Made by a program: the position numbers and the translations under genes. Under the pieces are notes generated by a model. That model had not been told where the DNA came from. It searched no databases and saw only the letters and a list, made by a program, of their open reading frames with translations. A stretch of DNA of 64,000 nt from Candidatus Omnitrophota bacterium (GTDB lineage: Bacteria > Omnitrophota > Gorgyraeia > Duberdicusellales > 4484-171): positions 16,022 to 80,021 of the forward strand of contig JAAEQW010000327.1 of NCBI GenBank assembly GCA_024231025.1, read 5' to 3'. The first letter of the stretch is position 1, and each line of letters starts with the position of its first letter. Below, piece after piece: positions 4,620 to 57,304 of the stretch.

Positions 4620-4620
4620 G

Positions 4621-6183: not shown

Positions 6184-6185
6184 GA

Positions 6186-28529: not shown

Positions 28530-31500
28530 TTAATCACAGAAAGCCAAATCTCTATTTCTTTGGCGTTCAATACTGATAATTTCAAATGTAAACCCGCCGA
28601 AATCGTTAATATCAAATTCGACTGCGTTCGGGATAAAATTATTTATTCCTTCTCCTTGCACATCTATGTTTAATTTATTCGGATTAAAATCGATGCCGCC
28701 GGGGATACCCTTAGAGTGGGCGCCGACTATCCCGGCGGCTTTTGTCGACGCTTTTGAAGACGAGCGGACGTAAATTTCTTTTACCTGCGCCTCATAGGCT
28801 TTTTTGCGCTCAGTCAACTTCTCTTGATCAAAAACTGGCTGATACTCTTCATTGTGAACAACTACTCCGGGCATTGTCCGTAATGAAAATTCTCTTTGCT
28901 TAACTAGCTTAAGACCTAAATCTATATTATCCGGATCATAATTACGAATGATCAATAAGCTTGGCCCGCCTTTAACCGAAAGCTCGTGGTGCTCAAATTC
29001 TCCTCCCTTTGAAGAGAAAAAATCTCCAAGATCTTCATTGTGCTGTAAACTAAGACCTGCTAAATCAACAAATGCCACACCATTAGGTTTTAAAACACGC
29101 TTGATCTCTTCCAACACAAAAACCTTATTCTGAAGATAAGTAGCTACTGCTGGCCCTAAAAATACTACTTCAAATGACCTATCTTTGTAAGGAAGCCCAT
29201 AACTAACATCGGCGGTAATATGGCCTCGCTGCATTTTTTCAACAAACTTGTGCGCTTGCTCTAACGAAAGCTGTCCAACTCCTTTTGTCTCTGCCGCCTG
29301 CTCATCAATAACTGCTTTTAAACTTTCTGCTGAATGAAGATAGTTTTCTTTAGAGATTGCGCTAACGCTATTTAGATGCTTATAACGCGAAAGAAGATCA
29401 TAGACAATTTTTCCTCGGCCAACACCAATACATAAAACATTTTGCGCGCGATTTAAATAGGGCGATATACCAACGGTAATGTCGTTTTGGAAATCTTCAA
29501 TAAAACTATCCAGGCCGCGACCAACATTCTCCTCTCTATAAATTGGTTGCTCAAGTTTTAGAAGCGCCTGGACCCTCTTGATGCCCGGCCGACATCTTTC
29601 AATTAAGGCTTGACCGCGAGAAGTGGATAAATGTTGCTGGGCTGCTTTGTCGTATTCAAAAATAGCTGCACTACCTTCATCGGCATAGGAACCCCTGCGC
29701 ACAATTAATTCAGCAATCCCGTGAGCAATTGTTTGCGCTGATGCGCCGTCATGAACATAAACGATTTTTCTCCTGCGGCCCGTATGTTCCTGATGGCAAA
29801 CTCCTTTTTTATCTTTGTATAAATAACCTCGACCTTCAGTATCAAGAACAATGATCCTAACCTCTCCAATTTCCTCCGTGGAAACAATAATATCCGGTTT
29901 AAGTTTAAGATCATCTTGCGGCAACCAAGAGCTCTTCCCTCCAGCAACTAATTCTCTAAGTTCAATGATTCTTTCCTGATACATCTTACTCTGAACTTCC
30001 GGCCGCTGGGCAATAAGCCTAAAGATCTCTTTATGGAAAGGTGCCTGTTGGGCTATGCCTTGGTCGGAGATGGCGTAGCTTTGTGCCGGCACCAAGATGT
30101 TAGCCTGCTCGATCAAATCGGACCCAGCAGCTGCAAAAGGCATAACTTCTCCAAAATCAGGTATTTTGCGCGCAGCAGGATAGTAAATGATTTTTTCCGT
30201 TGCCACGAGTTCTTTTTTGATTTGAGGGTGTTGGCGCCAGTTGAGCATCCCCTCGATTTCTTCTCGGGAAAAAGTTAAATTGATAAAGCTTTCATCTTCT
30301 TTTAATTCTTCAATACGGTTTTGCCTTTTCGTTACCTCTTGTTTTTGCGGTTGCGCAATTGGAATTGTTAGATCAAAGGTTCGAACTAACAACAGCAAAA
30401 CCAAATCTTCATAGGCCTGGATGAATTTTTTTCGTTCATTTTTATCCTTTATTTTTTCTAAAATTTCTTTTCTGGTTTCCAAATAATTTAAACCGTCTAA
30501 GATTCTCTCGATACTTCCTTTTCTTTGCAACAAAGCATTCACCTGACCGGAAACTAAATTAGCGTGAATTTTTTCCGTTAGCGCCGAAAAGAAACCCGGA
30601 AAAAATGGGCTAGTAATTCCTAATCGTTGTTCAGCAATAAGGTAGATACCAAAATCCGGATCACCGATTTCGTGAGAAACAGAAATATTTTCTTCTTCAT
30701 TTTGATCACGATAAATATTATTTAATTTTTTTATGGCTCGAACTTTAATTTTTCGAACCCCCTCTCGAGTTGAATAAAAATACTCTTTCGCGATTCGAGC
30801 TGAGGGAATTTCGCACTCCTCTTTTGAACCATTAGTGCCAATTTCTTGTAAAACTTGTCTGCTCACACCCTTCCCATAATGCAATTTTAATACCACCCGC
30901 TCCTGAATTGTTAATCTCGCCAAAAGTTTAGATGAATACTGCTGGTTCAATAAAATCTCGTGTATCTCTACCGGAGAAGACACCTTTGGTCTAAACCTCT
31001 CTTTATGGACTACCCCTTTTCTTTCTCCTACTAAAGTCTCAAAAGAAAGAGCGGGAAAAAAACTACGAAACTCTTTTAAGTGCTTAATCTTTTCCTTTAG
31101 GGTAGCGGGAGGGTCCGTGTTAATCTCTTGGGCTATTTCTTCCAAGGTCGGTCGCCGGTAATCGCCACCCTCGCGCAATCGCTGAAGAATCTTTTTCTGC
31201 GCAGCTTCAGTGTCATGACTTAAGCGTCGAAAATGTTCGGGCATTTTCAAGGCATAAAGCGAGCAGTGAAGCAAGAAATTAACCATCTCTTTCTGCATCT
31301 TTATATGGGAGTAGGTCGTAAAAAGAACACCCTTGCGCCAATCAATTTTATCTACTGCGATCGATAAACCTAAATTCGCGGCTGCAATTAACTCCTCTTT
31401 CACGATATGCCTATTTTTACCTTGATCAGCAAAGATTCCCGCTGTTTGAGCTGCCCAGCGTAAATGCCCGCCAACAACGCACTCCTTAATTCTCCCGTAT

Positions 31501-34500
31501 CTAGCCGTGGTCTTTGAGTCAACTTTTTTTCTAATCGCTTCTGCTTCAGACAAAAGTAAAACTTCTTCAGCACGGCTTAACTTAAAATCAGAAAGAAGCG
31601 CTTTTCCTTGCAAATCATATGTCACCTCTGATCGATAGCGACTAAGGATATTCTCTACTTTTTTGTCGCGCTTTTGAAAAAACTCACCACTTACAATAAA
31701 CCGATTATCCCGCTTTCCATCCTCACTGATCTGGCCAAACCCCAAATCCGCCCCTTGCTTGATTTGCCAAAGCGGTTGAAAAACTGCCTCGATTGCTTTT
31801 CTTGGTATTCCTTTGGCACTATTTTTAGCGCAATCCATCATTGAAAATAAACCATTACGAAACAATTCAAGTTCAATCGCAACTTGCGCGGTTAACTCTT
31901 TTTCTTTATCGGCAAGCTTTTCGGCTTTTTCGTGATACGTTTTAATAGCGGCAACGTCTTCTTCTTGGCGAATATACTTGCCCTGGACATCATAGTTTTT
32001 TGCGCGAGCACGGAATTCAGTAATTTCATGAGTAATTTGCGCAGCAGTTACTCCTTCATGAACATAAACACGCCTGCGTTCTCTTCCAAGATGGCCGTGA
32101 TGCTTAGTGTCTTTTTTATCTTTGTATAAATAGCCTTGGCCTTTGGTGTCAAGGATAACAACTTCAACATCGCCAATTTCGGTCGGAATTGTAAAATCAA
32201 TATTGATTGGCAAATCCTGATCCGGTGCAATTCTTTCGTCCCCCTCAACCTTCACCCGTAACTCTTGGATTTTATCTTTCAGCCCTTTGCCTTGCAGTTC
32301 CGGTCGCTGGGCAATAAACTCAAAAATCTCTTTATGGAAAGGTGCCTGTTGGGCGATGCCTTCGGTGGAGATTGCGCCAACTGATTCGATTTTTTGCAAG
32401 TGCAATTGAGGTTGGAAATCAATCGTAGCAAGGGTTTTTGGAAGTTTACCCGGTAACACAATGTTCAGCCTCTGCGCCAAGAACAAGTTAAGCGCTCTGG
32501 CGCGTTCGCGGCGAGCCTCTTTCATTTGTTTTTTTCCATTATAAGAAAAAGAGTCTTTTTTACCATTGAGAAAATCAAATTTCATTGACGCTTCTTGAGC
32601 AGCTTCAAAAACCCTCTCTCGTGATAATAAATCTCTTTCTATCTTATCTTCGATCGCGGCAACTAAAAGAAGAAACGTCGCGCTTTCCATGCAAATATTC
32701 TCCTTGAACGTCTCGATTAAAAATAAATCTATATTTGTGTCAAAACAAAAATTATTCTTGGCAATTGTTTTCATTATTTCTGGTCGATCAAAAGTTAAAA
32801 TCAAATAAGAAAACATATCTTTTTCTTCTTCGGAAAGTGAAATAGCATTAGTTTTTGTTTCCGCACGATATTGCTTCATAAACTGAGGCATTATCATTTT
32901 TATTTCCTCATAATTTATTGCCTGTCTGTCTAGTCCAAAAAGAGACCCGATATCTTCTTGTGTCCATCCTAAAATTCTTAACTTTAAGACTACTCTTCTT
33001 CTGCCTGGCTTTACCCTGGCTAAAACGCGAAACATCTGTCTAGCCCTCTCCCAAAGCATTACATCACCAAAAGGAGACAAATTTCTCGAAGGCACTAAAT
33101 CTTTACGAGTTAGCGCTGTTTCTTCGCTAATTGAAGCGTCTAGCGGAACCGCCGAAGAATACATCTTTTCAACGGCAACAACCTGCTCTGCTGTGACTTT
33201 GCTTTCTTTCGCAACTTGCTCTATTGTTGCTTTTGCACCTAAGCCTTTTCTTGCATTTTTTATGGCATAGATTTTGTCGGTGTGCTTTCTATTAACCGGA
33301 CCGCCTTGTTCATCAAAAGCATTTCTCATTTTTCCATTGGTTGATCGCTTTATAAAACTGGCAAATAGGGCTTCACCGTTTGGGTCAAATTTCTTTTTTC
33401 GCATCACCCGTAATACTTCTAGCTCGCCTACAGCAGCTAGATCATCAATATGAGTTAATTCCAAGTTAATTTTTCGCGCACGCCATATAAGCAATTTTTT
33501 CAGCGAACTAATTACACACGCCTCGATTTCTTTTTTGAGACGATTATCTGCAGTTGAATAATATACAGTAAAAAGAATTTGCTCTTCTTCTCTGTTTAAA
33601 GCTTCTCTAAGATAGGCCTCATTGGGATGATCCGAGGTTTTGCGATCGGCGAGAATTTGTTCGGCTTTCGTGCGCAGGCGCATGTTTCCTTTGCTTTTCT
33701 CATCTGATGCGCCTACTGCACCCCCTGTATGTGCACCTCCAAAATTTTTTGTGCCCGAAGTAGTAGGAAATTTTAAAGTAAATGTAGTCCCTTTGCCAAG
33801 GGCACTTTCGATTTCGATTTTTCCTCCGACATTGTCCATTACCTTTTTAACAAAATAAAGGCCCATCCCTGTGCCGCCAAGGCGCCCGGTAAAACCTTTT
33901 TCAAATAACAAACTATAAATATCTCCGTCGCTTGCCTTTTTGCCTTTGGCTACTATTCTTTGTATTCTTTCTAAAACATCTTTCTCGATTTTATGCACAG
34001 AAACTTCGGACTCGTTATCGGTGGAAATTATTTCTTGGGCTTTCTCTAATATTTTTTCTTTATCAATCCCCACACCAGAGTCGCTTATCCGCACTATCTG
34101 ATGCACTTGCCCAGCTTCGGTTTGGCTCTCAATGGTTACAGCGACTTCTTTAACGTGAGCTGCCTGCTGAGCGTTGATAAACAAATTAAGCATCATAATG
34201 ATAAAGCTATTCGGACTCACCGCAATAATCGATTCTTTGTCGTTATCTTTTTTAAGATTAACCTCTAGTCCAATTCCGGCAACCATCTCAGCTGCCAAGT
34301 CAACTAACGGCGCCAACACTGCATATCCAAGTTGTTTTTGCCTAAGCTCAGAAACAAATTTTCTAAATCGTTTAAGCGAAACAATCGCCTGACGATTTCG
34401 TTTAGTGTTAACAATCTCCCCTCTGGTCAATCCAAGTTCCTTTAAAAATTCTTTCGGCACCCTTTGTTTATATTGTGATGCCCTTTTATGAAGACCAATC

Positions 34501-36434
34501 GCTTCAGACAAAATCTCTTCAATCAAAACAAAAAGCTTTGCGGTTAAATCCCCGCGTTTCTCCAGCGAAGCCGTCTGGGTCAAATTCTGCGTTGCTACCC
34601 ATAATCCGCTAAGCTGCATCCTTTCTTTTACTAGTTGCTTTCCTGCATCATCGTGCTCAAACACTTCGTTGTAATAATCAATTGCCTTAAACACAACCGT
34701 CATCGTGTTTGCAATAAGATGAGTAAAGTCCCGCATTTTTATAAGCTCACTTGAGATATAGCCGCTATTTTCTCTATTCTGTGTTGTTCCTTCTATTTGT
34801 TTAAGAATTTCTCTTTTCACGCGTATGTACCATATTTGCTTTTGAATTTCCTCGGGACGCTCTTTGCTGATCGCTTCTTGTATGTTCCTGAAATTCTCTT
34901 CAAAAAACGGCTGATTGCGCCTAACGATGTCGGCCCTTGATAGATTTCTGATTACACTGCTTTGGCGAGAATAAGCTGAAGTAAAAGTTACAGTTCCAAA
35001 AAAGCTTTCATCGGGTATATTTTCAAGTATAGTTTTTAAGAATACCGACTTGGCAGTTGTTCTGCCAGAAGTCTTTTTCCCCTCGATGTTTAGCGCACCT
35101 AGCTCAGCGGTCATTTTAACTGGTTTTGGCACCTGTTTGTCACCTGAAACAACTTCTACTGTTTCGGCAATTTCACTGGCAAAAAATCCGCCGGAAAAAT
35201 ACTTACGATTAACGTGTTTATTTAGAATTTCGTCAAAATCCCTTCGAATATAGTTGTACACACCTTTTTTGTAGGCCTCTAGGTACTGATTATAAATTTT
35301 TTCTTTTATTTGGGGGTCCGTGCCTTCAATACCTTTGGTTTTGTTTTTACCGATATATATTTTGTCTAATAGGTGTGTGGTTAATTCGTCTTCCGGGGAC
35401 ACGTACCGTTCTCGGCCTTCGGCCTGCGCTTTCGGTACATGTCCCCGTAGGCTGTCAACTGAACGGCGAAGCCGTTGCTTAAACCAGGTTGCAAGAATCA
35501 AGGCATCGTAAATTTGGCGTAGGTAAGCGAACTGTTTACCATTGTTTATTTCCTCTTCGATCATCGGAAGGATAATCTCTTTCGCGATTTGGAATGATAT
35601 ATTGCTAGAGGGCACGGCACGCCGTGCCCCTACGATATTTAAAATAGGGACTGTCCCCTCTTCTGCCAGGGATTGATCTTTGGTCGGCGCCTGTCCCTCC
35701 CCTACGAATTGGTCTATGGTCTCTGGTCTATGGTCTCTGGTCTGATTACGTTGCTGTGCAACGTAATCTTCCTCCATCATCACTTTGAGATGATTATCAC
35801 CCAGAGTTGCCCTATCTCCTTGTTCATACACAATTGCTCTCTCAGGTACAATCCAAATTTTGTTAAAAGTGTTGATCGCAACATTGCTTGTGCCATAAAG
35901 CTGGTACGCTTTGTTGTGCACTTTTTTCCAGAATTGTTTTCCCAATGGGTTATCTGGATAAGTTAAAGAAGCCAGAAGCTGCTTTAGGATGTAGTCTTCC
36001 CCTAGAAGATCTTTACCCATATCAGTTAAACCTAGTCCATGAGCAACAACCGTATCCTTCTCATAAGGCGAAAGGTTAACCCAGAAATCTTCTTCGGGAA
36101 TGGTTAACGCAGATAAAAAGTATTTTATTAACCTTTGGCCCTCTGTTCTCAATTCTTTATCGCTATGGTTTGAATCGCCTTCACTTAATATGAAGTCAAA
36201 TTTGAATGGGTTGTCGGCGTAAAGCTTAATCCCCTTTAAGGATAAAGGGTTATATCTAGCGGTCAAGCCAATCAATTCTGTTGGCGCAGGCATATATGGC
36301 AGTGCTGAGGCATAGCCTGCTGAGTCTTTTGCCAAATAAACCCCAATGGTTGAGGCTATAAAGGCAGCCAGAATAAAGAATGCTACCATCCTAAACGGAG
36401 CACTAGCTCGTTTCTTACATAAATATAGGGTCAT
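28530..36434 (-). CDS. Giant (2634 aa) membrane-anchored multidomain protein. It carries the N-terminal domain shared with two paralogs, two sigma-70-like modules, an HATPase_c domain, an internal 120-aa duplication, and a class I SAM methyltransferase-like domain.
   Basis: N-terminal transmembrane helix. Conserved WVNLSPYEKD domain. FTTYSHIKMQKEMVNFL and FASFIKRSTNGKMRNAF region-2-like segments and HTH region-4-like segments. HATPase G-box GGTGMGLYFVKK (~33750-34150). Methyltransferase motifs VLCIGVGRG and LKPNGVAFV (~28950-29460). Confidence 0.7.
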   Translation of the reverse strand: MTLYLCKKRASAPFRMVAFFILAAFIASTIGVYLAKDSAGYASALPYMPAPTELIGLTARYNPLSLKGIKLYADNPFKFDFILSEGDSNHSDKELRTEGQRLIKYFLSALTIPEEDFWVNLSPYEKDTVVAHGLGLTDMGKDLLGEDYILKQLLASLTYPDNPLGKQFWKKVHNKAYQLYGTSNVAINTFNKIWIVPERAIVYEQGDRATLGDNHLKVMMEEDYVAQQRNQTRDHRPETIDQFVGEGQAPTKDQSLAEEGTVPILNIVGARRAVPSSNISFQIAKEIILPMIEEEINNGKQFAYLRQIYDALILATWFKQRLRRSVDSLRGHVPKAQAEGRERYVSPEDELTTHLLDKIYIGKNKTKGIEGTDPQIKEKIYNQYLEAYKKGVYNYIRRDFDEILNKHVNRKYFSGGFFASEIAETVEVVSGDKQVPKPVKMTAELGALNIEGKKTSGRTTAKSVFLKTILENIPDESFFGTVTFTSAYSRQSSVIRNLSRADIVRRNQPFFEENFRNIQEAISKERPEEIQKQIWYIRVKREILKQIEGTTQNRENSGYISSELIKMRDFTHLIANTMTVVFKAIDYYNEVFEHDDAGKQLVKERMQLSGLWVATQNLTQTASLEKRGDLTAKLFVLIEEILSEAIGLHKRASQYKQRVPKEFLKELGLTRGEIVNTKRNRQAIVSLKRFRKFVSELRQKQLGYAVLAPLVDLAAEMVAGIGLEVNLKKDNDKESIIAVSPNSFIIMMLNLFINAQQAAHVKEVAVTIESQTEAGQVHQIVRISDSGVGIDKEKILEKAQEIISTDNESEVSVHKIEKDVLERIQRIVAKGKKASDGDIYSLLFEKGFTGRLGGTGMGLYFVKKVMDNVGGKIEIESALGKGTTFTLKFPTTSGTKNFGGAHTGGAVGASDEKSKGNMRLRTKAEQILADRKTSDHPNEAYLREALNREEEQILFTVYYSTADNRLKKEIEACVISSLKKLLIWRARKINLELTHIDDLAAVGELEVLRVMRKKKFDPNGEALFASFIKRSTNGKMRNAFDEQGGPVNRKHTDKIYAIKNARKGLGAKATIEQVAKESKVTAEQVVAVEKMYSSAVPLDASISEETALTRKDLVPSRNLSPFGDVMLWERARQMFRVLARVKPGRRRVVLKLRILGWTQEDIGSLFGLDRQAINYEEIKMIMPQFMKQYRAETKTNAISLSEEEKDMFSYLILTFDRPEIMKTIAKNNFCFDTNIDLFLIETFKENICMESATFLLLVAAIEDKIERDLLSRERVFEAAQEASMKFDFLNGKKDSFSYNGKKQMKEARRERARALNLFLAQRLNIVLPGKLPKTLATIDFQPQLHLQKIESVGAISTEGIAQQAPFHKEIFEFIAQRPELQGKGLKDKIQELRVKVEGDERIAPDQDLPINIDFTIPTEIGDVEVVILDTKGQGYLYKDKKDTKHHGHLGRERRRVYVHEGVTAAQITHEITEFRARAKNYDVQGKYIRQEEDVAAIKTYHEKAEKLADKEKELTAQVAIELELFRNGLFSMMDCAKNSAKGIPRKAIEAVFQPLWQIKQGADLGFGQISEDGKRDNRFIVSGEFFQKRDKKVENILSRYRSEVTYDLQGKALLSDFKLSRAEEVLLLSEAEAIRKKVDSKTTARYGRIKECVVGGHLRWAAQTAGIFADQGKNRHIVKEELIAAANLGLSIAVDKIDWRKGVLFTTYSHIKMQKEMVNFLLHCSLYALKMPEHFRRLSHDTEAAQKKILQRLREGGDYRRPTLEEIAQEINTDPPATLKEKIKHLKEFRSFFPALSFETLVGERKGVVHKERFRPKVSSPVEIHEILLNQQYSSKLLARLTIQERVVLKLHYGKGVSRQVLQEIGTNGSKEECEIPSARIAKEYFYSTREGVRKIKVRAIKKLNNIYRDQNEEENISVSHEIGDPDFGIYLIAEQRLGITSPFFPGFFSALTEKIHANLVSGQVNALLQRKGSIERILDGLNYLETRKEILEKIKDKNERKKFIQAYEDLVLLLLVRTFDLTIPIAQPQKQEVTKRQNRIEELKEDESFINLTFSREEIEGMLNWRQHPQIKKELVATEKIIYYPAARKIPDFGEVMPFAAAGSDLIEQANILVPAQSYAISDQGIAQQAPFHKEIFRLIAQRPEVQSKMYQERIIELRELVAGGKSSWLPQDDLKLKPDIIVSTEEIGEVRIIVLDTEGRGYLYKDKKGVCHQEHTGRRRKIVYVHDGASAQTIAHGIAELIVRRGSYADEGSAAIFEYDKAAQQHLSTSRGQALIERCRPGIKRVQALLKLEQPIYREENVGRGLDSFIEDFQNDITVGISPYLNRAQNVLCIGVGRGKIVYDLLSRYKHLNSVSAISKENYLHSAESLKAVIDEQAAETKGVGQLSLEQAHKFVEKMQRGHITADVSYGLPYKDRSFEVVFLGPAVATYLQNKVFVLEEIKRVLKPNGVAFVDLAGLSLQHNEDLGDFFSSKGGEFEHHELSVKGGPSLLIIRNYDPDNIDLGLKLVKQREFSLRTMPGVVVHNEEYQPVFDQEKLTERKKAYEAQVKEIYVRSSSKASTKAAGIVGAHSKGIPGGIDFNPNKLNIDVQGEGINNFIPNAVEFDINDFGGFTFEIISIERQRNRDLAFCD
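29715..30075 (-). repeat. Intragenic duplicated module, copy 2 (GIAQQAPFHKEIF...YLYKDKK...YVHDGA), within the giant gene
   Basis: Protein-level repeat of ~120 aa. The DNA retains a near-identical 50-nt stretch (ctttatggaaaggtgcctgttgggc...) at 30020-30075 and 32328-32385. Confidence 0.7.
32025..32385 (-). repeat. Intragenic duplicated module, copy 1
   Basis: Same ~120-aa module as 29715-30075. Confidence 0.7.
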
Positions 36435-36604: not shown

Positions 36605-36685
36605 AATTGGTAAGATACAAAAAGAAAGGCATGAAAACTAATTTACCCATGCACACCGCGTAGGTGTACATGGGTTTTGAGTTAT

Positions 36686-39600
36686 TTAATCTAGTAGCGG
36701 TCTAATTGATTTAATATCACGAATACCGAGAACTTTAATCCCCGCATTATTAAAAAATTCCGGATTAATATTGAAAGTTTTACCCATCCAGTCTTCAGAA
36801 GATCCTGTTACATTTAAAGCATTGTCTAAGCCTTCAATTTTTACACCACCGTGGGCACTGCTAAGACCTGCGGAGCTTCTTCGTGTTGATCCGCCACTAC
36901 CATTATTGAGAAGCCCTGAACCTTGTTTTGTCCCAGAAGGCCCTTGACCTCCACCATTGAAAGGATCACCTGGATCATCATCGCTAGAAAGAACACCGCC
37001 AATTTGATCAGCATCAACCGCAACGAAGCGCGAATCTTTACGCATCGACAGCTCGTGCAGCCGCGCTTCAGCCCTCGCCTGGACCTCGCTGTCCTCCTTG
37101 GCAAAAGCATTTTCTGCAACAATCACTCGCGAAAAATCTGTTCCTAACAGTTCATACAACTCAATTAAAATTGACCCTCGCACGTATGTTCCGTTGGCTT
37201 CCTCTCCAAAGCGCTTTGAGTCCTCCCCAATATCATATCCCAGCACGTGATCATAGCGGCTTTCGGCGTTCATGTCTAGCGCTAAGAATATTCCTTCACA
37301 CCCTAGTGTATCATCCATTGCGTCTTGCAACGCGCTAACAACATCATAAAGTTTAGACCGCTTTGTATTGTCCAGCGCAACTAACGTTTTCTGGGCCGTA
37401 GCAGCCGCAACCTCTAACCCTTTAACTGATGCCTCAACGCTAGAGTAGCCTGCGGCAACCAAAGAAATTTCATTAACTGCCAATCCCGGAAAATCACTCT
37501 GAGCCTGCTGCGGAGAAAGAGCCAAGGTAGTATAGACATTTTGTGCGGCTGGCGAAGCAGAACGCCCTTGCGATAAGTCGCTATTGCCATAGACATATGT
37601 TAAAACCTTTTCCCGCTCCCAAACTGTGGCTTCTATTGTTTGTAGCACCCCCCCTGGTTTAGTAGCTAAATCAATAATTTGATCGGCTCGATTAACTTGA
37701 TCGGCTTGATCGCCTCGATCAGCTTTTTTGTTAGCATAGGTGTACTCACGCAATTCAGGGGCATTACCTGAGGCACGCATATGGAACCGATCGCCATAAC
37801 TGTCCCACATTACGATCCCATCAATAAGATGATCGCCAAAGGCCAAATGAACAATTTCTCCAAAACCCAATCCTGCGTGATAAAAATTTTCCATCTTTTT
37901 GCGTAAATTAATCGCATCAGCAACAAGTTCGTCCTGGTCATCATAAGAAACGGTGGAAGAATCATCTTCTCCCCGTAAGATAACAGTCATTGTTCTGTCG
38001 GCATCATTAAACATAACCTCGGAAACATTGTGACGATGTAAACTATATTCCTCATGAATAAGCTGCCCCGTACGCTTTTCTCCCGGTAAAACTGGTAGTT
38101 CGTGGATCAATCCTGCATTATCTTCGTAATTGTCAAGCTCTCCAACAAAAAATTCTGAAACATTTTTGTTATGTTTTATTGCCTCTAAAAAAATAATCAT
38201 CGGCGTTGGCAGTGCGTCGCGGGTGATTAGTTCATCTAACGGCTGACCATTGGGTAATATTATGTTGGGCCCAATAAAAATCCCGCCGTTAACCTCCTGA
38301 CCAATGACCTTAAGGTTCGGGTTCTTGCGCAACATCCATCGCATTAAATATTTATGGTAGGGTGAACCGACCGAACAGTGTTTCACCACAATACCGTCTT
38401 TTGCTAACTGATCATCAACGTCTTGATTTCCGGTTAGCGATTGGACAACAGCATCCACTTTCAGGGCCCGCGCCACCGGCACGATTGTTACGTCGCCGCG
38501 CCAAAATATGCCATTTTCATCAATCACCATCGAGCGATCACCATCGCCGTCAGCCGAAGTTTCACCCAGCAAAATAACGTCCTCACCGTCAACCCTAATC
38601 ACGGTTTTGCCTTCTACCTCACGAGCACCATAGTCTTTCTTAACCGTGCGCATATCCTTTTTGATGTCAGCCAAATGCTCTTTAGTCATGTTTTCGGTAT
38701 CTAAAGCAATGAAAGAGTTTGATCGGCGACGCCGCTCAATAACTTTCATCCCTAAGGCTCGATAAATATCCACATGCTCTTGAACTGCTACCGTTGAATG
38801 GCCCCAATAAACAACGGCATACCCTTTAAAAGGTTGAGGGTTGTCCGCAGTTGAAAAAGCATCAACAAAGCGCTGAATATAAATTTTCTTAGCCTCATCA
38901 TTAACTTTGATCGCATTAATGTCTACGTTGGCTCCCGGCTTAAATAGGCCCCTAACTCCAAAAATAGAATCCGTCGCCGCCTGCTTGTAAAGAACTTCTC
39001 GTCGGGCTTTAACCGCAGCGATAATACCCTCTTTATCGGAAACGCCATCGTCTTTTTCTTCGGCCTCATTAAGCACCTCACCATCTTTACTATAAAGCTT
39101 TAATCCGTTAAATTTACCTGCCGTGTGACTTCCGGTAATCATGATCCCCGGCAAATTATATTTCTGACAATAGTAGGCCATAATTGGCGTTGATACCTCA
39201 TCTAGAAAATCAACTTCTACCCCTAAATCACGACAAGCAGTGGCTATCGCATTAGCAAACACTGGCGAGCTTCTGCGAAAATCCATAGCTAACACCATCT
39301 TCTGACCGGGAACTATCGCTCCATTATTATCAACCGCTAATTGCGCTTTGCTCACTAGCCAGTCAGAAAAACCACTGGTTATGGCATAAGGCTCAATGTC
39401 CTTCATCACATCTACCAGCCCACGAAAACCACTCGTGCCCATGCCGGTCGGCTTTGGAGTATAGTCCATTTCTTGAAGCAAACAACCGGGAGGATACACT
39501 GCGGGATCAAGCTCCTGATCAGAAAAGCTTTTGCGATCAATCTCAGCGGCTAAAGTAACTCGCTGCACGCGCTGCTCAAAAGGTATTTCTAAGCTTGGAT

Positions 39601-40813
39601 TAGCTATCATTTGTGCTCCCGGAAAAATATATTCTCCTTCAGACCCGTCACTACCGCTAGGTCCATCATTTGGTGGCCCGTCATCTGGATTCGAAATCAT
39701 CGTAGAATCAGCTACTTGCGCATTACCTTCAAAAGAAACAGCCGCAAGATCCTCCGCTATTACAGGAACTGCGTCGCTTATTTCTGGCAAATCCTCTTGA
39801 GTGTATCCACCAGAGAAATAACGCCGTTTGATTCTTCTATTTGTTGCTGGGTCAACCTCTTTTTTGATATAATCATACAGTTTTCCCTCAAACGCCTCAA
39901 CATAAAGATTATAAACCTTTTGTTTAATTTCCTTATCAGAAATCGCGATTCCATCAACTTTTGCCTGATTAATAAAGTGCTTATAAAAAGAATCTTGAAA
40001 CTTCTTTTTAAACCACGTAGCCAATACCATCGAATGGTATATTTGACGCAAAGTTGCAAAGTTTTTTCCTTGGTTTATTTCGTTATTAATTTTCGGTAAA
40101 ATTACCTGGCGCAGAGCATTGGAGGTTATCTCGTCTACTTCATCTGTCCGATCAATGCCTGTAGCATTTTTGCGAGCAAGAAAGTCTTCTTCCAATACCG
40201 CTTTTAGTTGTGCGTCGTTGATTAAAGCAACGTTTTCGTGCTCATAAACTTCAGCTGTATACGGAGTGATCCAAATTTTATTAAATGTGTTTATCGAAAC
40301 TTTTGTTGTTCCAAGGGTGTCGGTTAAGTCTTGATAAATTTTATCCCAATAATTTTTTCCGGCTTGACTATCAGGGCAAGTAATTGACGCCGATAGCTGT
40401 TTTAAAATATAATCCTGAGAAAGCAAGTCACGCCCTAGGTCAGTTGCGCTTAATTCATCTGGAAGAATTCGATTTTGCTCATATGGCGATAAGTTAACCC
40501 AAATATCCTTCTCGGCCATGGTAAGGCCAGCAAGAAAATAATTAATCAAACGCTTTGCGTCTTTTTCACTTATCTTCTCCTTGCTTCCGGTGTCAATAAT
40601 GAATTCAATATGCAAAGGGTTTTCGTAATCCAATCGCAAACCTTTTAGTACCGGAAAGGAGTAATTCTCCGACAACGGCACCATTGTTTGAGGACCAGGC
40701 AAGTCAAGAGTGTTTGCAAAAGTGACGAAAGGCGTTTGAATTAAAAGGGATACGACAAAAAAGAAAAGAGTTACGAAATTCAACTTAACGGATTGAGTGC
40801 GTAAATGCACCAT
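36686..40813 (-). CDS. Giant (1375 aa) secreted paralog with the conserved N-terminal domain, a phosphohexomutase-like domain and a Gly-rich C-terminus
   Basis: Signal peptide. N-terminal domain shared with the 2634- and 1084-aa proteins. GTSGFRG and TGSHTAGKFNGLKLY resemble the PGM/PMM GTSGLR and TASHNP motifs (~38800-39450). Confidence 0.65.
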   Translation of the reverse strand: MVHLRTQSVKLNFVTLFFFVVSLLIQTPFVTFANTLDLPGPQTMVPLSENYSFPVLKGLRLDYENPLHIEFIIDTGSKEKISEKDAKRLINYFLAGLTMAEKDIWVNLSPYEQNRILPDELSATDLGRDLLSQDYILKQLSASITCPDSQAGKNYWDKIYQDLTDTLGTTKVSINTFNKIWITPYTAEVYEHENVALINDAQLKAVLEEDFLARKNATGIDRTDEVDEITSNALRQVILPKINNEINQGKNFATLRQIYHSMVLATWFKKKFQDSFYKHFINQAKVDGIAISDKEIKQKVYNLYVEAFEGKLYDYIKKEVDPATNRRIKRRYFSGGYTQEDLPEISDAVPVIAEDLAAVSFEGNAQVADSTMISNPDDGPPNDGPSGSDGSEGEYIFPGAQMIANPSLEIPFEQRVQRVTLAAEIDRKSFSDQELDPAVYPPGCLLQEMDYTPKPTGMGTSGFRGLVDVMKDIEPYAITSGFSDWLVSKAQLAVDNNGAIVPGQKMVLAMDFRRSSPVFANAIATACRDLGVEVDFLDEVSTPIMAYYCQKYNLPGIMITGSHTAGKFNGLKLYSKDGEVLNEAEEKDDGVSDKEGIIAAVKARREVLYKQAATDSIFGVRGLFKPGANVDINAIKVNDEAKKIYIQRFVDAFSTADNPQPFKGYAVVYWGHSTVAVQEHVDIYRALGMKVIERRRRSNSFIALDTENMTKEHLADIKKDMRTVKKDYGAREVEGKTVIRVDGEDVILLGETSADGDGDRSMVIDENGIFWRGDVTIVPVARALKVDAVVQSLTGNQDVDDQLAKDGIVVKHCSVGSPYHKYLMRWMLRKNPNLKVIGQEVNGGIFIGPNIILPNGQPLDELITRDALPTPMIIFLEAIKHNKNVSEFFVGELDNYEDNAGLIHELPVLPGEKRTGQLIHEEYSLHRHNVSEVMFNDADRTMTVILRGEDDSSTVSYDDQDELVADAINLRKKMENFYHAGLGFGEIVHLAFGDHLIDGIVMWDSYGDRFHMRASGNAPELREYTYANKKADRGDQADQVNRADQIIDLATKPGGVLQTIEATVWEREKVLTYVYGNSDLSQGRSASPAAQNVYTTLALSPQQAQSDFPGLAVNEISLVAAGYSSVEASVKGLEVAAATAQKTLVALDNTKRSKLYDVVSALQDAMDDTLGCEGIFLALDMNAESRYDHVLGYDIGEDSKRFGEEANGTYVRGSILIELYELLGTDFSRVIVAENAFAKEDSEVQARAEARLHELSMRKDSRFVAVDADQIGGVLSSDDDPGDPFNGGGQGPSGTKQGSGLLNNGSGGSTRRSSAGLSSAHGGVKIEGLDNALNVTGSSEDWMGKTFNINPEFFNNAGIKVLGIRDIKSIRPLLD

Positions 40814-50969: not shown

Positions 50970-51286
50970 CCTACAGTGCTTCCGGGTTCAACTTTTGTGT
51001 CCGTCGTGAGTACAGTTAGTTTTTCTCCCCCCTTGGCCGCCAGAAGCATGCCGCAGGACTCTACTCCTCTTACTGTTTTTGGTTCTAAATTTCCCAAAAC
51101 AACAACTAATTTATTTTCTAGGTCTTCTGGGGCATAAAATTGTTTTATTCCTGCCACCAGTTGAACCTGCTTTTCTCCGATGTCAACTTTCAAAACATAT
51201 AATCTATCTGCGTCGGGATGATCACTCACCTCCAGCACTTTGCCAACCCTTAACTCCAATTTAGAAAAATCCTGATAGGTGATCAT
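50966..51286 (-). CDS. tRNA-binding domain protein (CsaA/EMAP-II-like OB fold)
   Basis: F..LELRVGKVLEV..HPDADRLYVLKVDIG ... ESCGMLLA is the typical tRNA_bind domain. Confidence 0.7.
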   Translation of the reverse strand: MITYQDFSKLELRVGKVLEVSDHPDADRLYVLKVDIGEKQVQLVAGIKQFYAPEDLENKLVVVLGNLEPKTVRGVESCGMLLAAKGGEKLTVLTTDTKVEPGSTVG

Positions 51287-57000: not shown

Positions 57001-57304
57001 CTAAAAAATACCTCACAAGCTTAGATGTTTCGACTTTTAAATTATTTTCATCAATATCAGCATCGCCAGTATCTACGATAAAATCAAATTTTAAAGGGTT
57101 ATCAGGATAAACTTTCATTCCTTTCAAAACTGGGTAAGAATGAGGTTTAGAGCTTAAAAGCAATTGTATCGGTTGAGGCAAATCACAAACTGCTGGTTCA
57201 AAAAACTTAGAACGCAACAACCCTGATAGAATAGCAGCCCCCAGGATAGCCACTGCTACAATTGCTGCGATTAACTTAAATGAAATTGTTCCTTCTCTAA
57301 ACAT
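54050..57304 (-). CDS. Giant-family paralog 3 (1084 aa) with a conserved N-terminal domain. The rest is uncharacterised.
   Basis: Transmembrane/signal N-terminus. N-terminal domain about 45% identical to the other two (WVNLSPYEKDRVIP). C-terminal GGIDFDS tail motif shared with the 2634-aa protein. Confidence 0.65.
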   Translation of the reverse strand: MFREGTISFKLIAAIVAVAILGAAILSGLLRSKFFEPAVCDLPQPIQLLLSSKPHSYPVLKGMKVYPDNPLKFDFIVDTGDADIDENNLKVETSKLVRYFLASLAIPEEDLWVNLSPYEKDRVIPEKLGMTEMGVELLAQDYILKQLMSSLTYPESELGKKFWDRVYAKVNELYGAVDMPINTFSKVWIMPEKVLIHVNGDTAFVVEGHLKVMLESDYLAFKKNLYNLEAKTVKSDIQNSKEINDVSSSIMKEIILPEIEREVNQGEHFAKLRQAFYSMVLATWFKRNLKEGLLGKSYADKGEVSGVDVEDKELKNEIYQQYVKAYRAGVYNYIKKEYDLYQHKAISRKYFSGGYTHHNPDAIQEQNVSSAVLENDIKHETHGEAFVAQVYIDVAKKLDHLYGVLDRIALSKEPEFMSLPKEAKEDDIMMAVIKYLKRRDNGKGHLITEDIDSDGNIIYILSDRLKVTTLGEEVVQEVMKGADGQGVKVIHLLLPGTDGGQGVIVGFQGEIKQQKEREKEELRWHKGGEFEGQNYGQGMSAFESSIKVAEDRGGEHAGSIAEIRRMEFRSTQEDAGIAASFERDVSQRVPGFRAWLWEVGRAVIREKEKILSDDHRKILSNVRKRLYYLIEHQNLEQLDRSIFGDIEVLAHFDLDKALYFLKELLYHRNEKVIQGACNKLKYFIRRPGYEEIVYDIFIEALHSDVESTSSYVLDTVLKDISLENPQAVTPKIVEAIGEVFKRGEEFSSQSAFRILSITATNPELQGEVKDKAIAIVKKAVSDEYYKVYPEGEDINDFLDSWMGNNSFSLMGLSLEDVPRAIIEFRSFEIIKPDKQTDFLTEEGGERVFVADVLSGKEGLDILENKFETIWVQENEGMLSEGLIPMRSHGFSGCHAVLIRDKCTDNYALFHFKREAPRLWGKRPFRKYIEYLGDGEKEAIYLSNNMRGAMRFAHESEEYLARKFGIKTLKFVEVNSGKHPWSLVFRPTTKQLIVYSGKEAYIFNAFAENKGIKQEGLPLTDSKTSTGGIDFDSAMWDLQTQGEATRFNDLVKNKDYEMSPLIRASPIVYRVFPANASYFTDNVDN

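What the first reader, a model, noticed from the sequence alone, without database searches (positions are those of the whole stretch)
28530..36434. 2634-aa protein combining sigma-70-like modules, an anti-sigma-type HATPase domain and a SAM methyltransferase-like domain behind a membrane anchor
Within one polypeptide I can read two sets of sigma-70 region-2-like (FTTYSHIKMQKEMVNFL; FASFIKRSTNGKMRNAF) and region-4-like HTH segments (VVLKLHYGKGVSRQVLQEIG...VRKIKVRAIKKL). There is also a GHKL/HATPase_c domain with the GGTGMGLYFVKK G-box, the fold used by RsbW/SpoIIAB anti-sigma kinases. A class I methyltransferase-like domain is present too (VLCIGVGRG, FEVVFLGPA, LKPNGVAFV). A membrane-tethered fusion of sigma and anti-sigma domains would be an unusual regulatory architecture. 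It may function as a processed polyprotein.
Basis: partly seen in the sequence, partly recalled or inferred. Interest (0 to 1): 0.7.

Follow-up and report, generated by a model that had tools for sequence, protein, structure and literature searches.

The report
Exported mosaic protein carrying sigma-factor modules
A 2,634-residue protein of an uncultured Omnitrophota bacterium does combine a kinase-type ATPase, two degenerate sigma-factor copies and a methyltransferase. It is one member of a very large, undescribed family of secretion-signal-bearing 'capped' mosaic proteins of that phylum, and it does not look like a sigma/anti-sigma switch.

Summary
The ORF (28530..36434, minus strand, 2634 aa) is real and identical to NCBI MCP4653411.1 from a Candidatus Omnitrophota MAG. 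The domain calls hold:
- **HATPase_c:** 62 bits, with N/G1/F/G2 boxes intact.
- **Methyltransf_11:** 26-32 bits, above the cut-off.
- **Two sigma-70-like modules:** module 2 is a complete r1.2-r4 sigma (RpoD_Cterm 8e-15, PDB SigA 2e-10, confident model whose top 50 fold matches are all sigma factors). Module 1 is weaker (3e-8).

All sigma hits fall below curated family cut-offs, and conserved core-binding and melting residues are lost.

The interpretation changes in three ways:
- The ATPase is histidine-kinase/CheA-like, not RsbW/SpoIIAB-like.
- The "anchor" looks like a cleavable Sec signal (A-S-A|L).
- The protein belongs to an Omnitrophota-specific family of more than 1,500 proteins, three of them in this window. 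Members share the signal, a ~400-aa N-terminal cap with no known fold, and a ~55-aa C-terminal cap, around highly variable cytoplasmic-type cargo.

The sigma cargo and a duplicated rare domain (repA) are unique to this member.

Best reading: an exported modular payload carrier. This part is inferred, not shown.

The parts
28530..36434 (-). Complete ORF, 2634 aa (stop codon included). It is identical to NCBI MCP4653411.1, 'methyltransferase domain-containing protein', from a Candidatus Omnitrophota MAG.
36303..36434 (-). aa 1-44: Sec-type signal. The n-region carries 4 K/R, the hydrophobic core is aa 16-35, and the predicted signal-peptidase-I site is A-S-A|L after aa 44.
   Evidence: 114 of 120 relatives have this layout. 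The (-3,-1) motif occurs in 91% of them against 36% in internal background windows.
35115..36302 (-). aa 45-440: N-terminal cap ('N-cap'). Invariant motifs include WVNLSPYE, DYxLKQ, NTFNKIWI, LRQIY and RKYFSGG. No Pfam or NCBIfam family matches, and no solved structural relative was found.
34200..35099 (-). aa 446-745: region with no family hit upstream of the ATPase. Its last ~115 aa align with the region upstream of the HATPase in P0121. A DHp/H-box could not be established.
33759..34199 (-). aa 746-892: GHKL ATPase of histidine-kinase/CheA type. N box NLFINAQQ, G1 DSGVGID, F FEKGFTG and G2 GGTGMGL are all intact. There is a ~45-aa CheA-like insert between G1 and F/G2.
32868..33512 (-). aa 975-1189: sigma-70-like module 1 (r2-r3-r4), strongly diverged. 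It keeps 14 of 47 positions that are conserved in canonical sigma factors.
   Evidence: PDB SigA 5e-4; TIGR02937 3e-8, 33 bits against a cut-off of 42.9
31911..32375 (-). aa 1354-1508: repA copy 1, a rare domain of unknown function with invariant motifs GYLYKD, H..H.GR.R..VYVH and I.H.I.E.
30693..31583 (-). aa 1618-1914: sigma-70-like module 2, a complete r1.2/2.1-r2-r3-r4 sigma with a ~20-aa insert in r4. It keeps 29 of 47 conserved positions. It has lost Q/E/G of the 'DLIQEGN' motif (r2.2), the conserved W of r2.3 and the R of r2.4.
   Evidence: PDB SigA 2e-10; RpoD_Cterm 8e-15
29604..30074 (-). aa 2121-2277: repA copy 2, 50% identical to copy 1.
29025..29477 (-). aa 2320-2470: class I SAM-methyltransferase-like domain (Methyltransf_11). 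Motif I is VLCIGVGRG, followed by ADVSYGLPYKDRSFEVVF and LKPNGVAFV. The substrate is unknown.
28533..28703 (-). aa 2578-2634: C-terminal cap ('C-cap'), GGIDFNP...GFTFEIISIE plus a short tail. It ends at the C-terminus.
   Evidence: 107 of 120 relatives; HMM hit in 109 of 120, always terminal; E 1.6e-15
36645..36675 (-). 13-bp-stem terminator-like hairpin directly after the upstream paralogue's stop codon. The giant gene therefore probably has its own promoter in the 251-bp spacer.
36686..40813 (-). Upstream paralogue, 1375 aa: signal + N-cap (33% identical to the giant's) + phosphoglucomutase cargo. No C-cap was detected by the HMM.
54050..57304 (-). Third paralogue, 1084 aa: N-cap (E 1e-166), cargo without any Pfam hit, weak C-cap (E 1.5e-6).

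Best explanation
Shown: the gene encodes a singleton member of an Omnitrophota-specific family of large mosaic proteins.
- Every member has a Sec-type signal with a conserved signal-peptidase site and a ~400-aa N-terminal cap of unknown fold.
- Nearly every member has a ~55-aa cap at the very C-terminus.
- Between the caps lies a freely varying set of 'cargo' domains that are normally cytoplasmic.
- In this member the cargo is: a histidine-kinase/CheA-type ATPase; a strongly diverged sigma-70 module; a rare domain (repA); a complete but degenerate sigma-70 module; a second repA; and a class I SAM methyltransferase. Flexible or unassigned linkers separate them.

Inferred:
- The polypeptide is threaded through Sec, so it works outside the producer's cytoplasm.
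- The conserved caps serve trafficking, sorting or translocation, and the middle is payload. The layout resembles polymorphic or MARTX-type effector carriers.
- The payload needs ATP, SAM and an RNA polymerase or DNA partner. It would therefore act only where those exist, most plausibly in or on a host or prey cell of these host-dependent nanobacteria.
- There, the sigma modules would bind RNA polymerase core or promoter DNA as decoys or redirectors rather than serve as the producer's own initiation factors.

The kinase and methyltransferase substrates and the role of repA are unknown.
For: Family membership and anatomy:
- The N-cap is shared at 36-60% identity by all 119 other listed relatives (1458-4553 aa). 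They match only 14-19% of the query. 1532 proteins scored E<=1e-5.
- The N-cap HMM hits 120/120, once per protein in 118 (2 split hits), starting at residue ~1 (median). The C-cap HMM hits 109/120, once each in 108, ending at the C-terminus (median distance 0).
- At least 571 loci exist in species-representative genomes. Nearly all are titled Omnitrophota/Omnitrophica or 'uncultured Planctomycetales'; one is labelled only 'bacterium'. Several genomes have multiple copies.
- Three copies lie in this window.

Export signal:
- Median net charge before the h-region is +3, and 114/120 have a strongly hydrophobic core of ~20 aa.
- The [AGSVTC]-x-A motif occurs in 107/117 against 36% background, with +1 mostly Q. 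In this protein it reads A-S-A|L.
- There are no further TM segments.

Cargo elsewhere in the family is cytoplasmic-type: PGM, PGI, PGK, GAPDH/TIM, ABC1 kinase, Ser/Thr kinase, PP2C, REC, GNAT, DEAD/SNF2 helicases, HAD, HPr, XRE HTH. One member carries a T9SS sorting-domain hit.

Cargo looks functional rather than decayed: ATP-binding boxes are intact, methyltransferase motifs are present, and the neighbour's PGM keeps its 'GSH' serine loop.

Sigma modules are true homologues but atypical.

Biological plausibility:
- Omnitrophota are ultra-small and host-dependent or predatory, and they carry many large surface or secreted mosaic ORFs (PMC10066038; 10.1101/2023.11.21.568195).
- MTase+HATPase 'Module 1' cargo, and 94% signal peptide or TM content, were reported for proteins >=10 kaa (10.64898/2026.06.07.730766).
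- RNA from an Omnitrophota predator has been observed inside dead prey cells (PMC13153191).
Against: - No dedicated signal-peptide or topology predictor was available. Cleavage and orientation rest on the positive-inside and (-3,-1) rules, and the 20-residue h-region is long for a cleaved signal.
- Nothing shows passage across the outer membrane or into another cell.
- The caps have no recognisable relation to any known secretion or translocation module.
- The cargo is housekeeping-like rather than toxin-like. That would be natural for membrane-associated cytoplasmic enzymes.
- The 2026 preprint reads similar cargo in TM-only giants as cytoplasmic.
- No protease for payload release was found.
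- Both sigma modules have lost residues that are >=85% conserved in canonical sigmas, so they may bind nothing.
- No orthologue exists to test for purifying selection.
Confidence: 0.5

Rival explanations
1. First reader's model. This is a membrane-tethered regulatory switch in the producer's own cytoplasm. Sigma domains are held at the membrane together with an anti-sigma-type kinase, and active sigma is released on a signal.
For: Sigma, GHKL and hydrophobic N-terminal elements coexist in one chain. Regulatory cargo such as REC, HATPase and XRE HTH recurs in the family. The 2026 preprint reads MTase/HATPase cargo of TM-only giants as cytoplasm-facing.
Against: - Four K/R residues precede the hydrophobic segment, and a conserved A-x-A site follows it. 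Both predict N-in/C-out export and cleavage.
- The ATPase is HK/CheA-like, not RsbW/SpoIIAB-like, and there is no STAS or anti-sigma domain.
- The same caps carry metabolic enzymes in hundreds of paralogues, so the frame is not regulatory by design.
- The sigma modules have lost conserved r2.2, r2.3 and r2.4 residues.
- No protease or release site was found.
Confidence: 0.15
2. Processed polyprotein. The chain is a delivery or expression vehicle that is cut at the linkers into separate proteins (kinase, two sigma-like proteins, repA domains, methyltransferase). This could happen in the producer or after export.
For: - Modules are separated by Gly/Ser-rich or unassigned linkers, for example aa 893-940 and ~2540-2577.
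- Each sigma module is a complete sigma-sized unit.
- West-Roberts et al. proposed C39/S8-mediated cleavage of Omnitrophota giants.
- This reading is compatible with the best explanation, as a MARTX-like release step.
Against: No peptidase domain or autoprocessing motif was detected in this protein. repA has conserved His and Glu residues but no match to any peptidase. No conserved junction motif was identified.
Confidence: 0.15
3. Structural or surface-coat mosaic whose captured domains are largely non-catalytic. Rampant domain accretion in Omnitrophota produces long exported proteins, and former enzymes or sigma factors serve only as bulk, spacers or binding surfaces, or are decaying.
For: - Module 1 keeps only 14 of 47 conserved sigma positions, and both modules have lost core-binding and melting residues.
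- Sigma Pfam hits are all sub-threshold.
- The cargo combination is a singleton with no orthologue.
- Published work proposes coat or adhesion roles for giant ORFs (PMC10066038).
Against: - The ATP-binding boxes and methyltransferase motifs are intact.
- A 7.9-kb frame is kept open.
- repA is kept at 50% identity in two copies and at 39-42% in an unrelated protein, which argues for constraint.
Confidence: 0.15
4. Artefact. Neighbouring genes (kinase, sigma factors, methyltransferase) have been fused by a metagenome misassembly or sequencing frameshift.
For: The sequence comes from a single MAG contig, and the protein cluster has one member seen on one contig.
Against: - The frame is uninterrupted for 2634 codons.
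- The family-specific N-cap sits at the start and the C-cap at the very end, exactly as in more than 100 relatives of 1.4-4.5 kaa from independent assemblies.
- The modules lack their own start contexts.
- Composition is uniform across the gene.
Confidence: 0.03

Closest known systems
Omnitrophota giant 'multi-enzyme / regulatory' mosaic proteins (West-Roberts et al. 2023 bioRxiv 10.1101/2023.11.21.568195; Nielsen & Lui 2026 bioRxiv 10.64898/2026.06.07.730766, 'Module 1': PF08241 methyltransferase + PF02518 HATPase + GNAT + HAD)
   Same: Same phylum. Mosaic of normally cytoplasmic domains in one long chain. Methyltransf_11 and HATPase_c occur together. An N-terminal signal is the rule. Function is unresolved.
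   Different: Those catalogues start at >=10 kaa and mostly have many TM helices. This protein is 2.6 kaa with none. Neither paper contains the word 'sigma', and I found no description of the conserved N-cap/C-cap frame in the sections and term searches I read.
MARTX toxins and polymorphic effector carriers (resemblance from my own knowledge, not tested by homology)
   Same: Conserved terminal regions frame a variable set of independently folding effector modules that act in another cell's cytoplasm.
   Different: MARTX toxins use a C-terminal T1SS signal, glycine-rich repeats and a cysteine protease domain for release. None of these was detected here. The caps have no sequence or fold relative. 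The cargo is enzyme- and regulator-like, not toxin-like.
Sigma-70 family factors of groups 1-3 (RpoD/SigA, SigB/F/G, FliA)
   Same: Module 2 aligns over r1.2/2.1 to r4.2 with SigA/RpoD and is modelled with the same three-domain fold. Module 1 aligns over r2-r4.
   Different: The modules are embedded in a signal-bearing 2634-aa chain. Scores are far below family cut-offs (55 against 354 bits). Q/E of r2.2, the W of r2.3 and the R of r2.4 are lost. There is a ~20-aa insert in r4 of module 2.
RsbW / SpoIIAB anti-sigma serine kinases
   Same: GHKL (Bergerat) ATP-binding fold.
   Different: The HATPase_c_2 profile scores only 14 bits against 62 for HATPase_c. The best solved relatives are ZraS, CheA, SrrB and KinB, and no RsbW/SpoIIAB appears at E<=0.01. 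There is a CheA-like lid insert and no STAS partner.
MzaA, the sigma-70-like protein of the MZA anti-phage system
   Same: A sigma-70-type domain inside a larger non-canonical protein. Weak hits in PADLOC (24.7 bits) and NCBIfam (NF041931, 2.4e-6).
   Different: The hit covers only the generic sigma region. No other Mza components or context are present. The score is far below the 800-bit cut-off.

Membership tests
Sigma-70 family (as a homologous fold) | Regions 2, 3 and 4 present in order and detectable by sequence profiles | tested here: met
   Module 2: RpoD_Cterm 8e-15 covering profile positions 18-231 of 238, and PDB SigA 2e-10. Module 1: TIGR02937 3e-8 covering 7-151 of 165. The five reciprocal hits checked are canonical sigmas.
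Sigma-70 family (as a homologous fold) | Three-domain sigma fold | tested here: met
   Module 2 model has pLDDT 85-97. The top 50 Foldseek PDB hits are all sigma factors, with ~290 aligned columns and probability 1.00. Caveat: the input alignment contained sigma factors. Module 1 was not modelled.
Functional sigma factor (named family member, e.g. RpoD/SigB/FliA/ECF) | Score at or above the curated family cut-off | tested here: not met
   All NCBIfam hits fall far below their cut-offs (55 against 354; 36.8 against 234). TIGR02937 reaches 42.6 against 42.9 only for the whole protein. All Pfam r2/r3/r4 hits are below the gathering score.
Functional sigma factor (named family member, e.g. RpoD/SigB/FliA/ECF) | Conserved core-binding (r2.2) and promoter-melting/recognition (r2.3-2.4) residues | tested here: not met
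   Of 47 positions that are >=85% conserved in 38 canonical sigmas, module 2 keeps 29 and module 1 keeps 14. Both have lost Q/E of DLIQEGN, the W of r2.3 and the R of r2.4. The functional meaning of these residues comes from my own knowledge of sigma-70 genetics.
Functional sigma factor (named family member, e.g. RpoD/SigB/FliA/ECF) | Binds RNA polymerase core and directs initiation | not testable with these tools
   Needs biochemistry or complex modelling.
RsbW/SpoIIAB-type anti-sigma kinase | HATPase_c_2-type GHKL domain closest to RsbW/SpoIIAB | tested here: not met
   HATPase_c_2 scores 14.3 bits (cut-off 27.4) against HATPase_c at 62 bits. The best NCBIfam and PDB matches are sensor kinases and CheA.
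RsbW/SpoIIAB-type anti-sigma kinase | Partner-switching context (STAS anti-anti-sigma, cognate sigma operon) | tested here: not met
   No STAS domain occurs in the protein or in the neighbouring genes I scanned.
Two-component histidine kinase | Catalytic ATP-binding domain with N, G1, F and G2 boxes | tested here: met
   NLFINAQQ, DSGVGID, FEKGFTG and GGTGMGL are present. PDB ZraS 9e-9 and CheA 1e-7.
Two-component histidine kinase | DHp/HisKA or Hpt domain with a phospho-accepting histidine | tested here: inconclusive
   No HisKA or Hpt profile hit in aa 446-745 at E<=1. There are only unvalidated candidates: 'FTHLIANT' at aa 572, and a histidine (GLHKRAS) by my reading of the alignment with P0121, position not computed.
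Class I SAM-dependent methyltransferase | Profile hit above cut-off and a GxGxG SAM-binding motif | tested here: met
   Methyltransf_11 scores 26.3-31.9 bits against 21.2. However, the profile is matched only over positions 38-94 of 95. Motif I is VLCIGVGRG, with Cys in place of the usual acidic residue. PDB 8k76 9e-5.
Omnitrophota N-/C-capped mosaic protein family (defined here) | Sec-type signal followed directly by the ~400-aa N-cap | tested here: met
   Local N-cap HMM E 2e-168, starting at residue 2. 36-60% identity to 119 relatives.
Omnitrophota N-/C-capped mosaic protein family (defined here) | GGIDxNP...GFxFxII C-cap ending at the C-terminus | tested here: met
   C-cap HMM E 1.6e-15 at aa 2578-2630 of 2634.
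MARTX-like effector carrier | Glycine-rich A/B/C repeats, T1SS signal, CPD autoprocessing protease | tested here: not met
   No such Pfam or NCBIfam hits. The resemblance is architectural only.
MARTX-like effector carrier | Translocation of central modules into a target cell | not testable with these tools
   Requires experiments.

The most novel reading that the evidence does not exclude
Omnitrophota nanobacteria use a phylum-specific, so far undescribed export and delivery frame (signal + N-cap ... C-cap) to move whole cytoplasmic-type enzymes and regulators into host or prey cells. This member would deliver two sigma-factor mimics plus a kinase and a methyltransferase that capture or reprogram the target bacterium's RNA polymerase. 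That would make it an 'injected sigma factor'.
Probability: 0.1. Interest if true: 0.9.

Novelty: new variant of a known kind. Interest (0 to 1): 0.6.

Why it matters
Sigma factors are known as cytoplasmic subunits of the cell's own RNA polymerase. Two sigma-like modules sitting behind a secretion signal, in a phylum of host-dependent ultra-small bacteria, is unexpected. It would be a new way of interfering with another cell's transcription if the protein is delivered.

More broadly, the finding exposes a very large dark family. More than 1,500 proteins and at least 571 loci in species-representative genomes share a conserved signal, a 400-residue N-terminal domain with no known fold, and a terminal C-cap.

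This frame gives the unresolved question 'what are the long mosaic proteins of Omnitrophota for?' concrete handles:
- Two conserved modules whose partners can be sought.
- A predicted cleavage site that existing metaproteomes can check.
- A simple genome-wide test of whether capped cargo duplicates stand-alone cytoplasmic enzymes or replaces them.

If instead the proteins are cytoplasm-facing, they represent an unusual way of tethering central metabolism and regulation to the membrane in minimal cells.

Tried and rejected
1. **Word-indexed homologue search with aa 940-2280.** It returned nothing, not even the identical database entry, although the query is an exact substring. I treated this as a retrieval failure, not as evidence of orphan status. 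I replaced it with the exhaustive HMMER search.
2. **Exhaustive search caveat.** It did not return the protein itself, so the protein is evidently represented by another cluster member, probably via the N-cap. Other sigma-bearing capped proteins could be hidden in the same way. 'Unique' therefore means unique among representatives and among the 119 closest relatives.
3. **Orthologue search for the central region.** Species-representative genomes gave none. Metagenome contigs gave one weak sigma-only hit, L001, at 25% identity.
4. **repA.** No Pfam, NCBIfam or PADLOC hit, and only chance-level PDB-profile matches (GFP permutant at 0.009). The AlphaFold model is low-confidence there. A zinc-peptidase reading of the His-rich motif was considered and dropped, because the Glu is not conserved between copies.
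5. **Tandem duplication of a whole [sigma-linker-repA] unit.** Only repA is detectably duplicated (z about 50). The two sigma modules and the linkers are no more alike than chance.
6. **LytS-like H-box 'FTHLIANT' at aa 572.** It lies ~180 aa upstream of the N box and has no profile support, so I left it as inconclusive.
7. **Tat export.** The n-regions are K/R-rich, but most lack an RR-x-F-L-K motif (my reading).
8. **Defence-system reading.** The only hit is a generic sigma-domain match to MzaA.
9. **AFDB Foldseek search of the N-cap.** The library was unavailable.
10. **Taxonomic origin of the sigma modules.** The closest sigmas are 30-34% identical and mostly unnamed, so this was uninformative.


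Full report
**1. Observation**

The window has one uninterrupted ORF at 28530..36434 on the minus strand, with an ATG start and 2634 aa. It is identical to NCBI MCP4653411.1, 'methyltransferase domain-containing protein', from a Candidatus Omnitrophica/Omnitrophota MAG. Its 90%-identity cluster has one member, seen on one 90-kb contig.

The surrounding genes are ordinary chromosomal genes on the same strand: Era GTPase, a TrmA-like methyltransferase, an acyl-CoA ligase, YidC and fatty-acid synthases. Base composition is uniform across the gene. A 13-bp-stem terminator-like hairpin at 36675..36645 separates the gene from the one upstream.

**2. Domain anatomy**

| aa | Element | Key evidence |
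|---|---|---|
| 1-44 | Positively charged n-region (4 K/R), 20-residue hydrophobic core, A-S-A\|L | |
| 45-440 | Conserved domain with no Pfam or NCBIfam hit ('N-cap') | |
| 446-745 | No family hit | |
| 746-892 | HATPase_c, 62 bits against a cut-off of 26.4, with N, G1, F and G2 boxes intact | |
| 893-940 | Gly-rich linker | |
| 975-1189 | Sigma-like module 1 | |
| 1354-1508 | Unknown domain 'repA', copy 1 | |
| 1618-1914 | Sigma-like module 2 | |
| 2121-2277 | repA copy 2, 50% identical to copy 1 (E 6e-36) | |
| ~2320-2470 | Methyltransf_11, 26-32 bits against 21.2 | |
| 2578-2634 | Conserved C-terminal element ('C-cap') | |

**3. Are the sigma segments really sigma?**

By the strict letter it is nearly met. 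Each Pfam r2/r3/r4 hit is a few bits under its gathering score, and TIGR02937 reaches 42.6 against 42.9.

Homology is nevertheless secure:
- Scanned separately, module 2 matches RpoD_Cterm at 8e-15 over profile positions 18-231 of 238. Module 1 matches TIGR02937 at 3e-8 over positions 7-151 of 165.
- phmmer against PDB gives SigA at 2e-10 for module 2 and 5e-4 for module 1.
- An exhaustive HMMER scan of 1.84 billion representatives with aa 940-2139 gave 870 hits at E<=1e-3. Almost all of the 150 listed are sigma-sized. The five I scanned or looked up are canonical r2+r3+r4 sigmas, named 'primary sigma factor' or 'sigma-70 family' where a name exists.
- An AlphaFold model of aa 1620-2280 is confident over the sigma part (pLDDT 85-97). 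Its top 50 Foldseek matches in the PDB are all sigma factors, with ~290 aligned columns. One caveat applies: the input alignment contained sigma factors.

The modules are also clearly not ordinary sigma factors. Of 47 positions that are >=85% conserved in 38 canonical sigmas, module 2 keeps 29 and module 1 only 14. Both have lost the Q/E of the r2.2 'DLIQEGN' motif, the conserved Trp of r2.3 and the Arg of r2.4. From my own knowledge of sigma-70 genetics, these residues matter for core binding and promoter melting. Module 2 also has a ~20-aa insert in r4. The two modules are not recent duplicates of each other.

**4. The ATPase and the methyltransferase**

The ATPase's best solved relatives are sensor kinases and CheA: ZraS 9e-9, CheA 1e-7, SrrB and KinB. 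The segment between the G1 and G2 boxes resembles the CheA lid insert. The RsbW/SpoIIAB-type profile HATPase_c_2 scores 14 bits, and no SpoIIAB or RsbW structure appears at E<=0.01. No STAS domain was found anywhere nearby. No HisKA or Hpt domain was detected either, so 'histidine kinase' is also unproven. The accurate label is 'HK/CheA-type GHKL ATPase'.

The methyltransferase domain has a GxGxG motif I (VLCIGVGRG) and the typical Methyltransf_11 C-terminal half. Its best PDB match is an uncharacterised SAM methyltransferase (8k76, 9e-5). The substrate cannot be inferred.

**5. The context that changes the interpretation**

A database search with the whole protein returned 1532 proteins at E<=1e-5. 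The 119 best, other than the protein itself, are 1458-4553 aa and match only 14-19% of the query, namely the N-terminal ~400 residues at 36-60% identity. All named ones are from Omnitrophota.

Their remaining sequence is very diverse and made of normally cytoplasmic domains:
- Metabolic enzymes: phosphoglucomutase, glucose-6-phosphate isomerase, phosphoglycerate kinase, GAPDH/TIM, FBPase, glycogen synthase.
- Kinases and phosphatases: ABC1 and Ser/Thr kinases, PP2C.
- Regulatory and other domains: receiver domains, HATPase, GNAT, methyltransferases, XRE-type HTH, DEAD and SNF2 helicases, HAD, HPr.

Local HMMs show the caps are strictly terminal. The N-cap hits 120/120, once per protein in 118 (2 split hits), starting at residue ~1 (median). 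A C-terminal element (GGIDxNP...GFxFxII or GFxPVIxxIxP...LG) hits 109/120, once each in 108, ending at the C-terminus (median distance 0).

Nearly all are in Omnitrophota-type MAGs; one is labelled only 'bacterium'. Some genomes have several.

The window itself holds three paralogues. They are the finding, its upstream neighbour (36686..40813, 1375 aa, N-cap + phosphoglucomutase) and 54050..57304 (1084 aa, N-cap + unassigned cargo + weak C-cap).

None of the 119 relatives contains a sigma-like or repA module, and there is no stand-alone sigma in the window.

**6. The caps**

**7. The N-terminal signal**

Across the family, the median net charge before the hydrophobic core is +3, and 114/120 have a strongly hydrophobic ~20-residue core. 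A signal-peptidase-I-type [AGSVTC]-x-A motif follows in 107/117 (91%), against 36% of internal control windows. Gln is the commonest +1 residue. The conserved 'LPxPG' start of the N-cap follows within a few residues.

By the positive-inside and (-3,-1) rules (established knowledge), this is a Sec signal that puts the rest of the chain outside the cytoplasmic membrane and is probably cleaved. No dedicated predictor was available, so this remains an inference.

**8. repA**

The exhaustive search found exactly one relative, P0121 (E 1.4e-17). Its full-length form, P0272 (2038 aa), has its own Sec-like signal, then repA, HATPase_c and a Fic domain. It has no N- or C-cap and lies next to AbiEii, Fic and nucleotidyltransferase genes. 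The invariant residues are GYLYKD, H..H.GR.R..VYVH and I.H.I.E. No function can be assigned.

**9. Mechanism**

Shown:
- Membership of the capped family.
- The identities of the cargo modules.
- Intact ATP-binding and SAM-motif residues.
- Degenerate but genuine sigma modules.
- A conserved Sec-type leader.

Inferred: the chain is exported, the caps are the constant trafficking or sorting part, and the middle is payload. The payload needs ATP, SAM and an RNA polymerase or DNA partner, which the periplasm or medium cannot supply. The most coherent reading is therefore action in or on another cell.

This reading fits what is published about the phylum:
- Omnitrophota are ultra-small cells with host-dependent or predatory traits and many long surface or secreted mosaic ORFs of unknown role (PMC10066038; 10.1101/2023.11.21.568195).
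- In proteins >=10 kaa, a methyltransferase+HATPase+GNAT+HAD co-occurrence module was reported, and 94% have a signal peptide or TM helices (10.64898/2026.06.07.730766).
- RNA of the predator Ca. Velamenicoccus has been seen inside dead prey cells (PMC13153191).

In that frame, the sigma modules would act as RNA-polymerase- or DNA-binding decoys or redirectors. I give the overall explanation 0.5. The family and anatomy layer is about 0.9. The 'works outside the producer's cytoplasm' layer is about 0.5. The 'delivered sigma mimic' layer is about 0.1.

Rivals:
- Cytoplasm-facing tethered regulatory switch: 0.15.
- Processed polyprotein, which is compatible with the main reading: 0.15.
- Largely non-catalytic coat or scaffold: 0.15.
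- Assembly artefact: 0.03.

**10. Comparison with the known, and novelty**

The kind is known but unexplained: long Omnitrophota mosaic proteins that mix methyltransferase and HATPase domains. The deposited protein is auto-annotated only as a methyltransferase-domain protein.

As far as the searchable literature shows, two things are new:
- The N-cap/C-cap frame shared by the 1.4-4.5-kaa size class.
- Sigma-70 modules as cargo. The word 'sigma' does not occur in either giant-protein preprint.

I therefore rate it a new variant of a known kind. It is not a member of any named sigma family, since cut-offs and conserved residues are not met. It is not an RsbW/SpoIIAB anti-sigma kinase. It is not demonstrably a two-component histidine kinase. 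The resemblance to MARTX or polymorphic effector carriers is architectural only.

**11. Limits**

- The central region has no orthologue, so selection on the modules cannot be measured.
- The clustered library may hide similar proteins under N-cap representatives.
- One search tool failed to retrieve the self-match.
- Topology rests on rules, not predictors.
- Nothing here demonstrates secretion, processing, enzymatic activity or RNA polymerase binding.

Noticed in passing
window 36686-40813 (-) and 54050-57304 (-): Two further paralogues of the capped family lie in the same 64-kb window. One (1375 aa) carries a phosphoglucomutase with its serine loop 'TGSHTAGK' apparently intact. The other (1084 aa) has cargo with no Pfam hit at all.
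   Followed up: partly
window 2211-6983 (+): A type IV pilus / type II secretion-like cluster: PilM, an unassigned ORF in the PilN position, PilO, a secretin with an STN domain, and an AAA_22 ATPase. It lies about 22 kb from the giant gene. Published work notes secretion and pilus loci near Omnitrophota giant genes.
   Followed up: partly
P0121 / P0272; locus L081 4459-10575: The only relative of the repA domain is a 2038-aa signal-bearing mosaic protein (repA + HATPase_c + Fic) without the Omnitrophota caps. It is flanked by AbiEii, Fic and nucleotidyltransferase (toxin-antitoxin-like) genes. The organism is unknown.
   Followed up: partly
N-termini of family members, e.g. window 36390-36434: The signal n-region is conserved in sequence, not just in charge. 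In the closest subfamily it reads (K/R)(K/R)(K/R)A(S/G)xxF(K/R) immediately before the hydrophobic core. More distant members keep an F(K/R) at the same place. This may point to recognition by a dedicated factor.
   Followed up: no
C-termini of family members: Beyond the C-cap strands, many members end in a short acidic or polar tail with a recurring (E/Q/D)-L-S-x-x-(R/K) or -LSYLP/-LAA type ending. A conserved extreme C-terminal tag would fit a sorting or recognition signal.
   Followed up: no
window 36645-36675 (-): A strong 13-bp-stem hairpin followed by a T-rich tract sits directly after the upstream paralogue's stop codon. It implies separate transcription units for the two adjacent capped genes.
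   Followed up: partly
window 51283-53961 (-): A conventional hybrid sensor kinase (7TM HisKA_7TM + 2 PAS + HATPase_c + receiver) lies immediately downstream of the third capped paralogue.
   Followed up: no
window 41534-43906 (-): A 790-aa TPR + DUF3857 + transglutaminase-core + DUF3858 protein lies just upstream of the two adjacent capped genes.
   Followed up: no
tool behaviour: The word-indexed protein search did not return the identical database protein when queried with an internal 1341-aa substring. The 50%-clustered library did not contain the protein as its own representative. Internal regions of long mosaic proteins may be systematically under-retrieved.
   Followed up: partly
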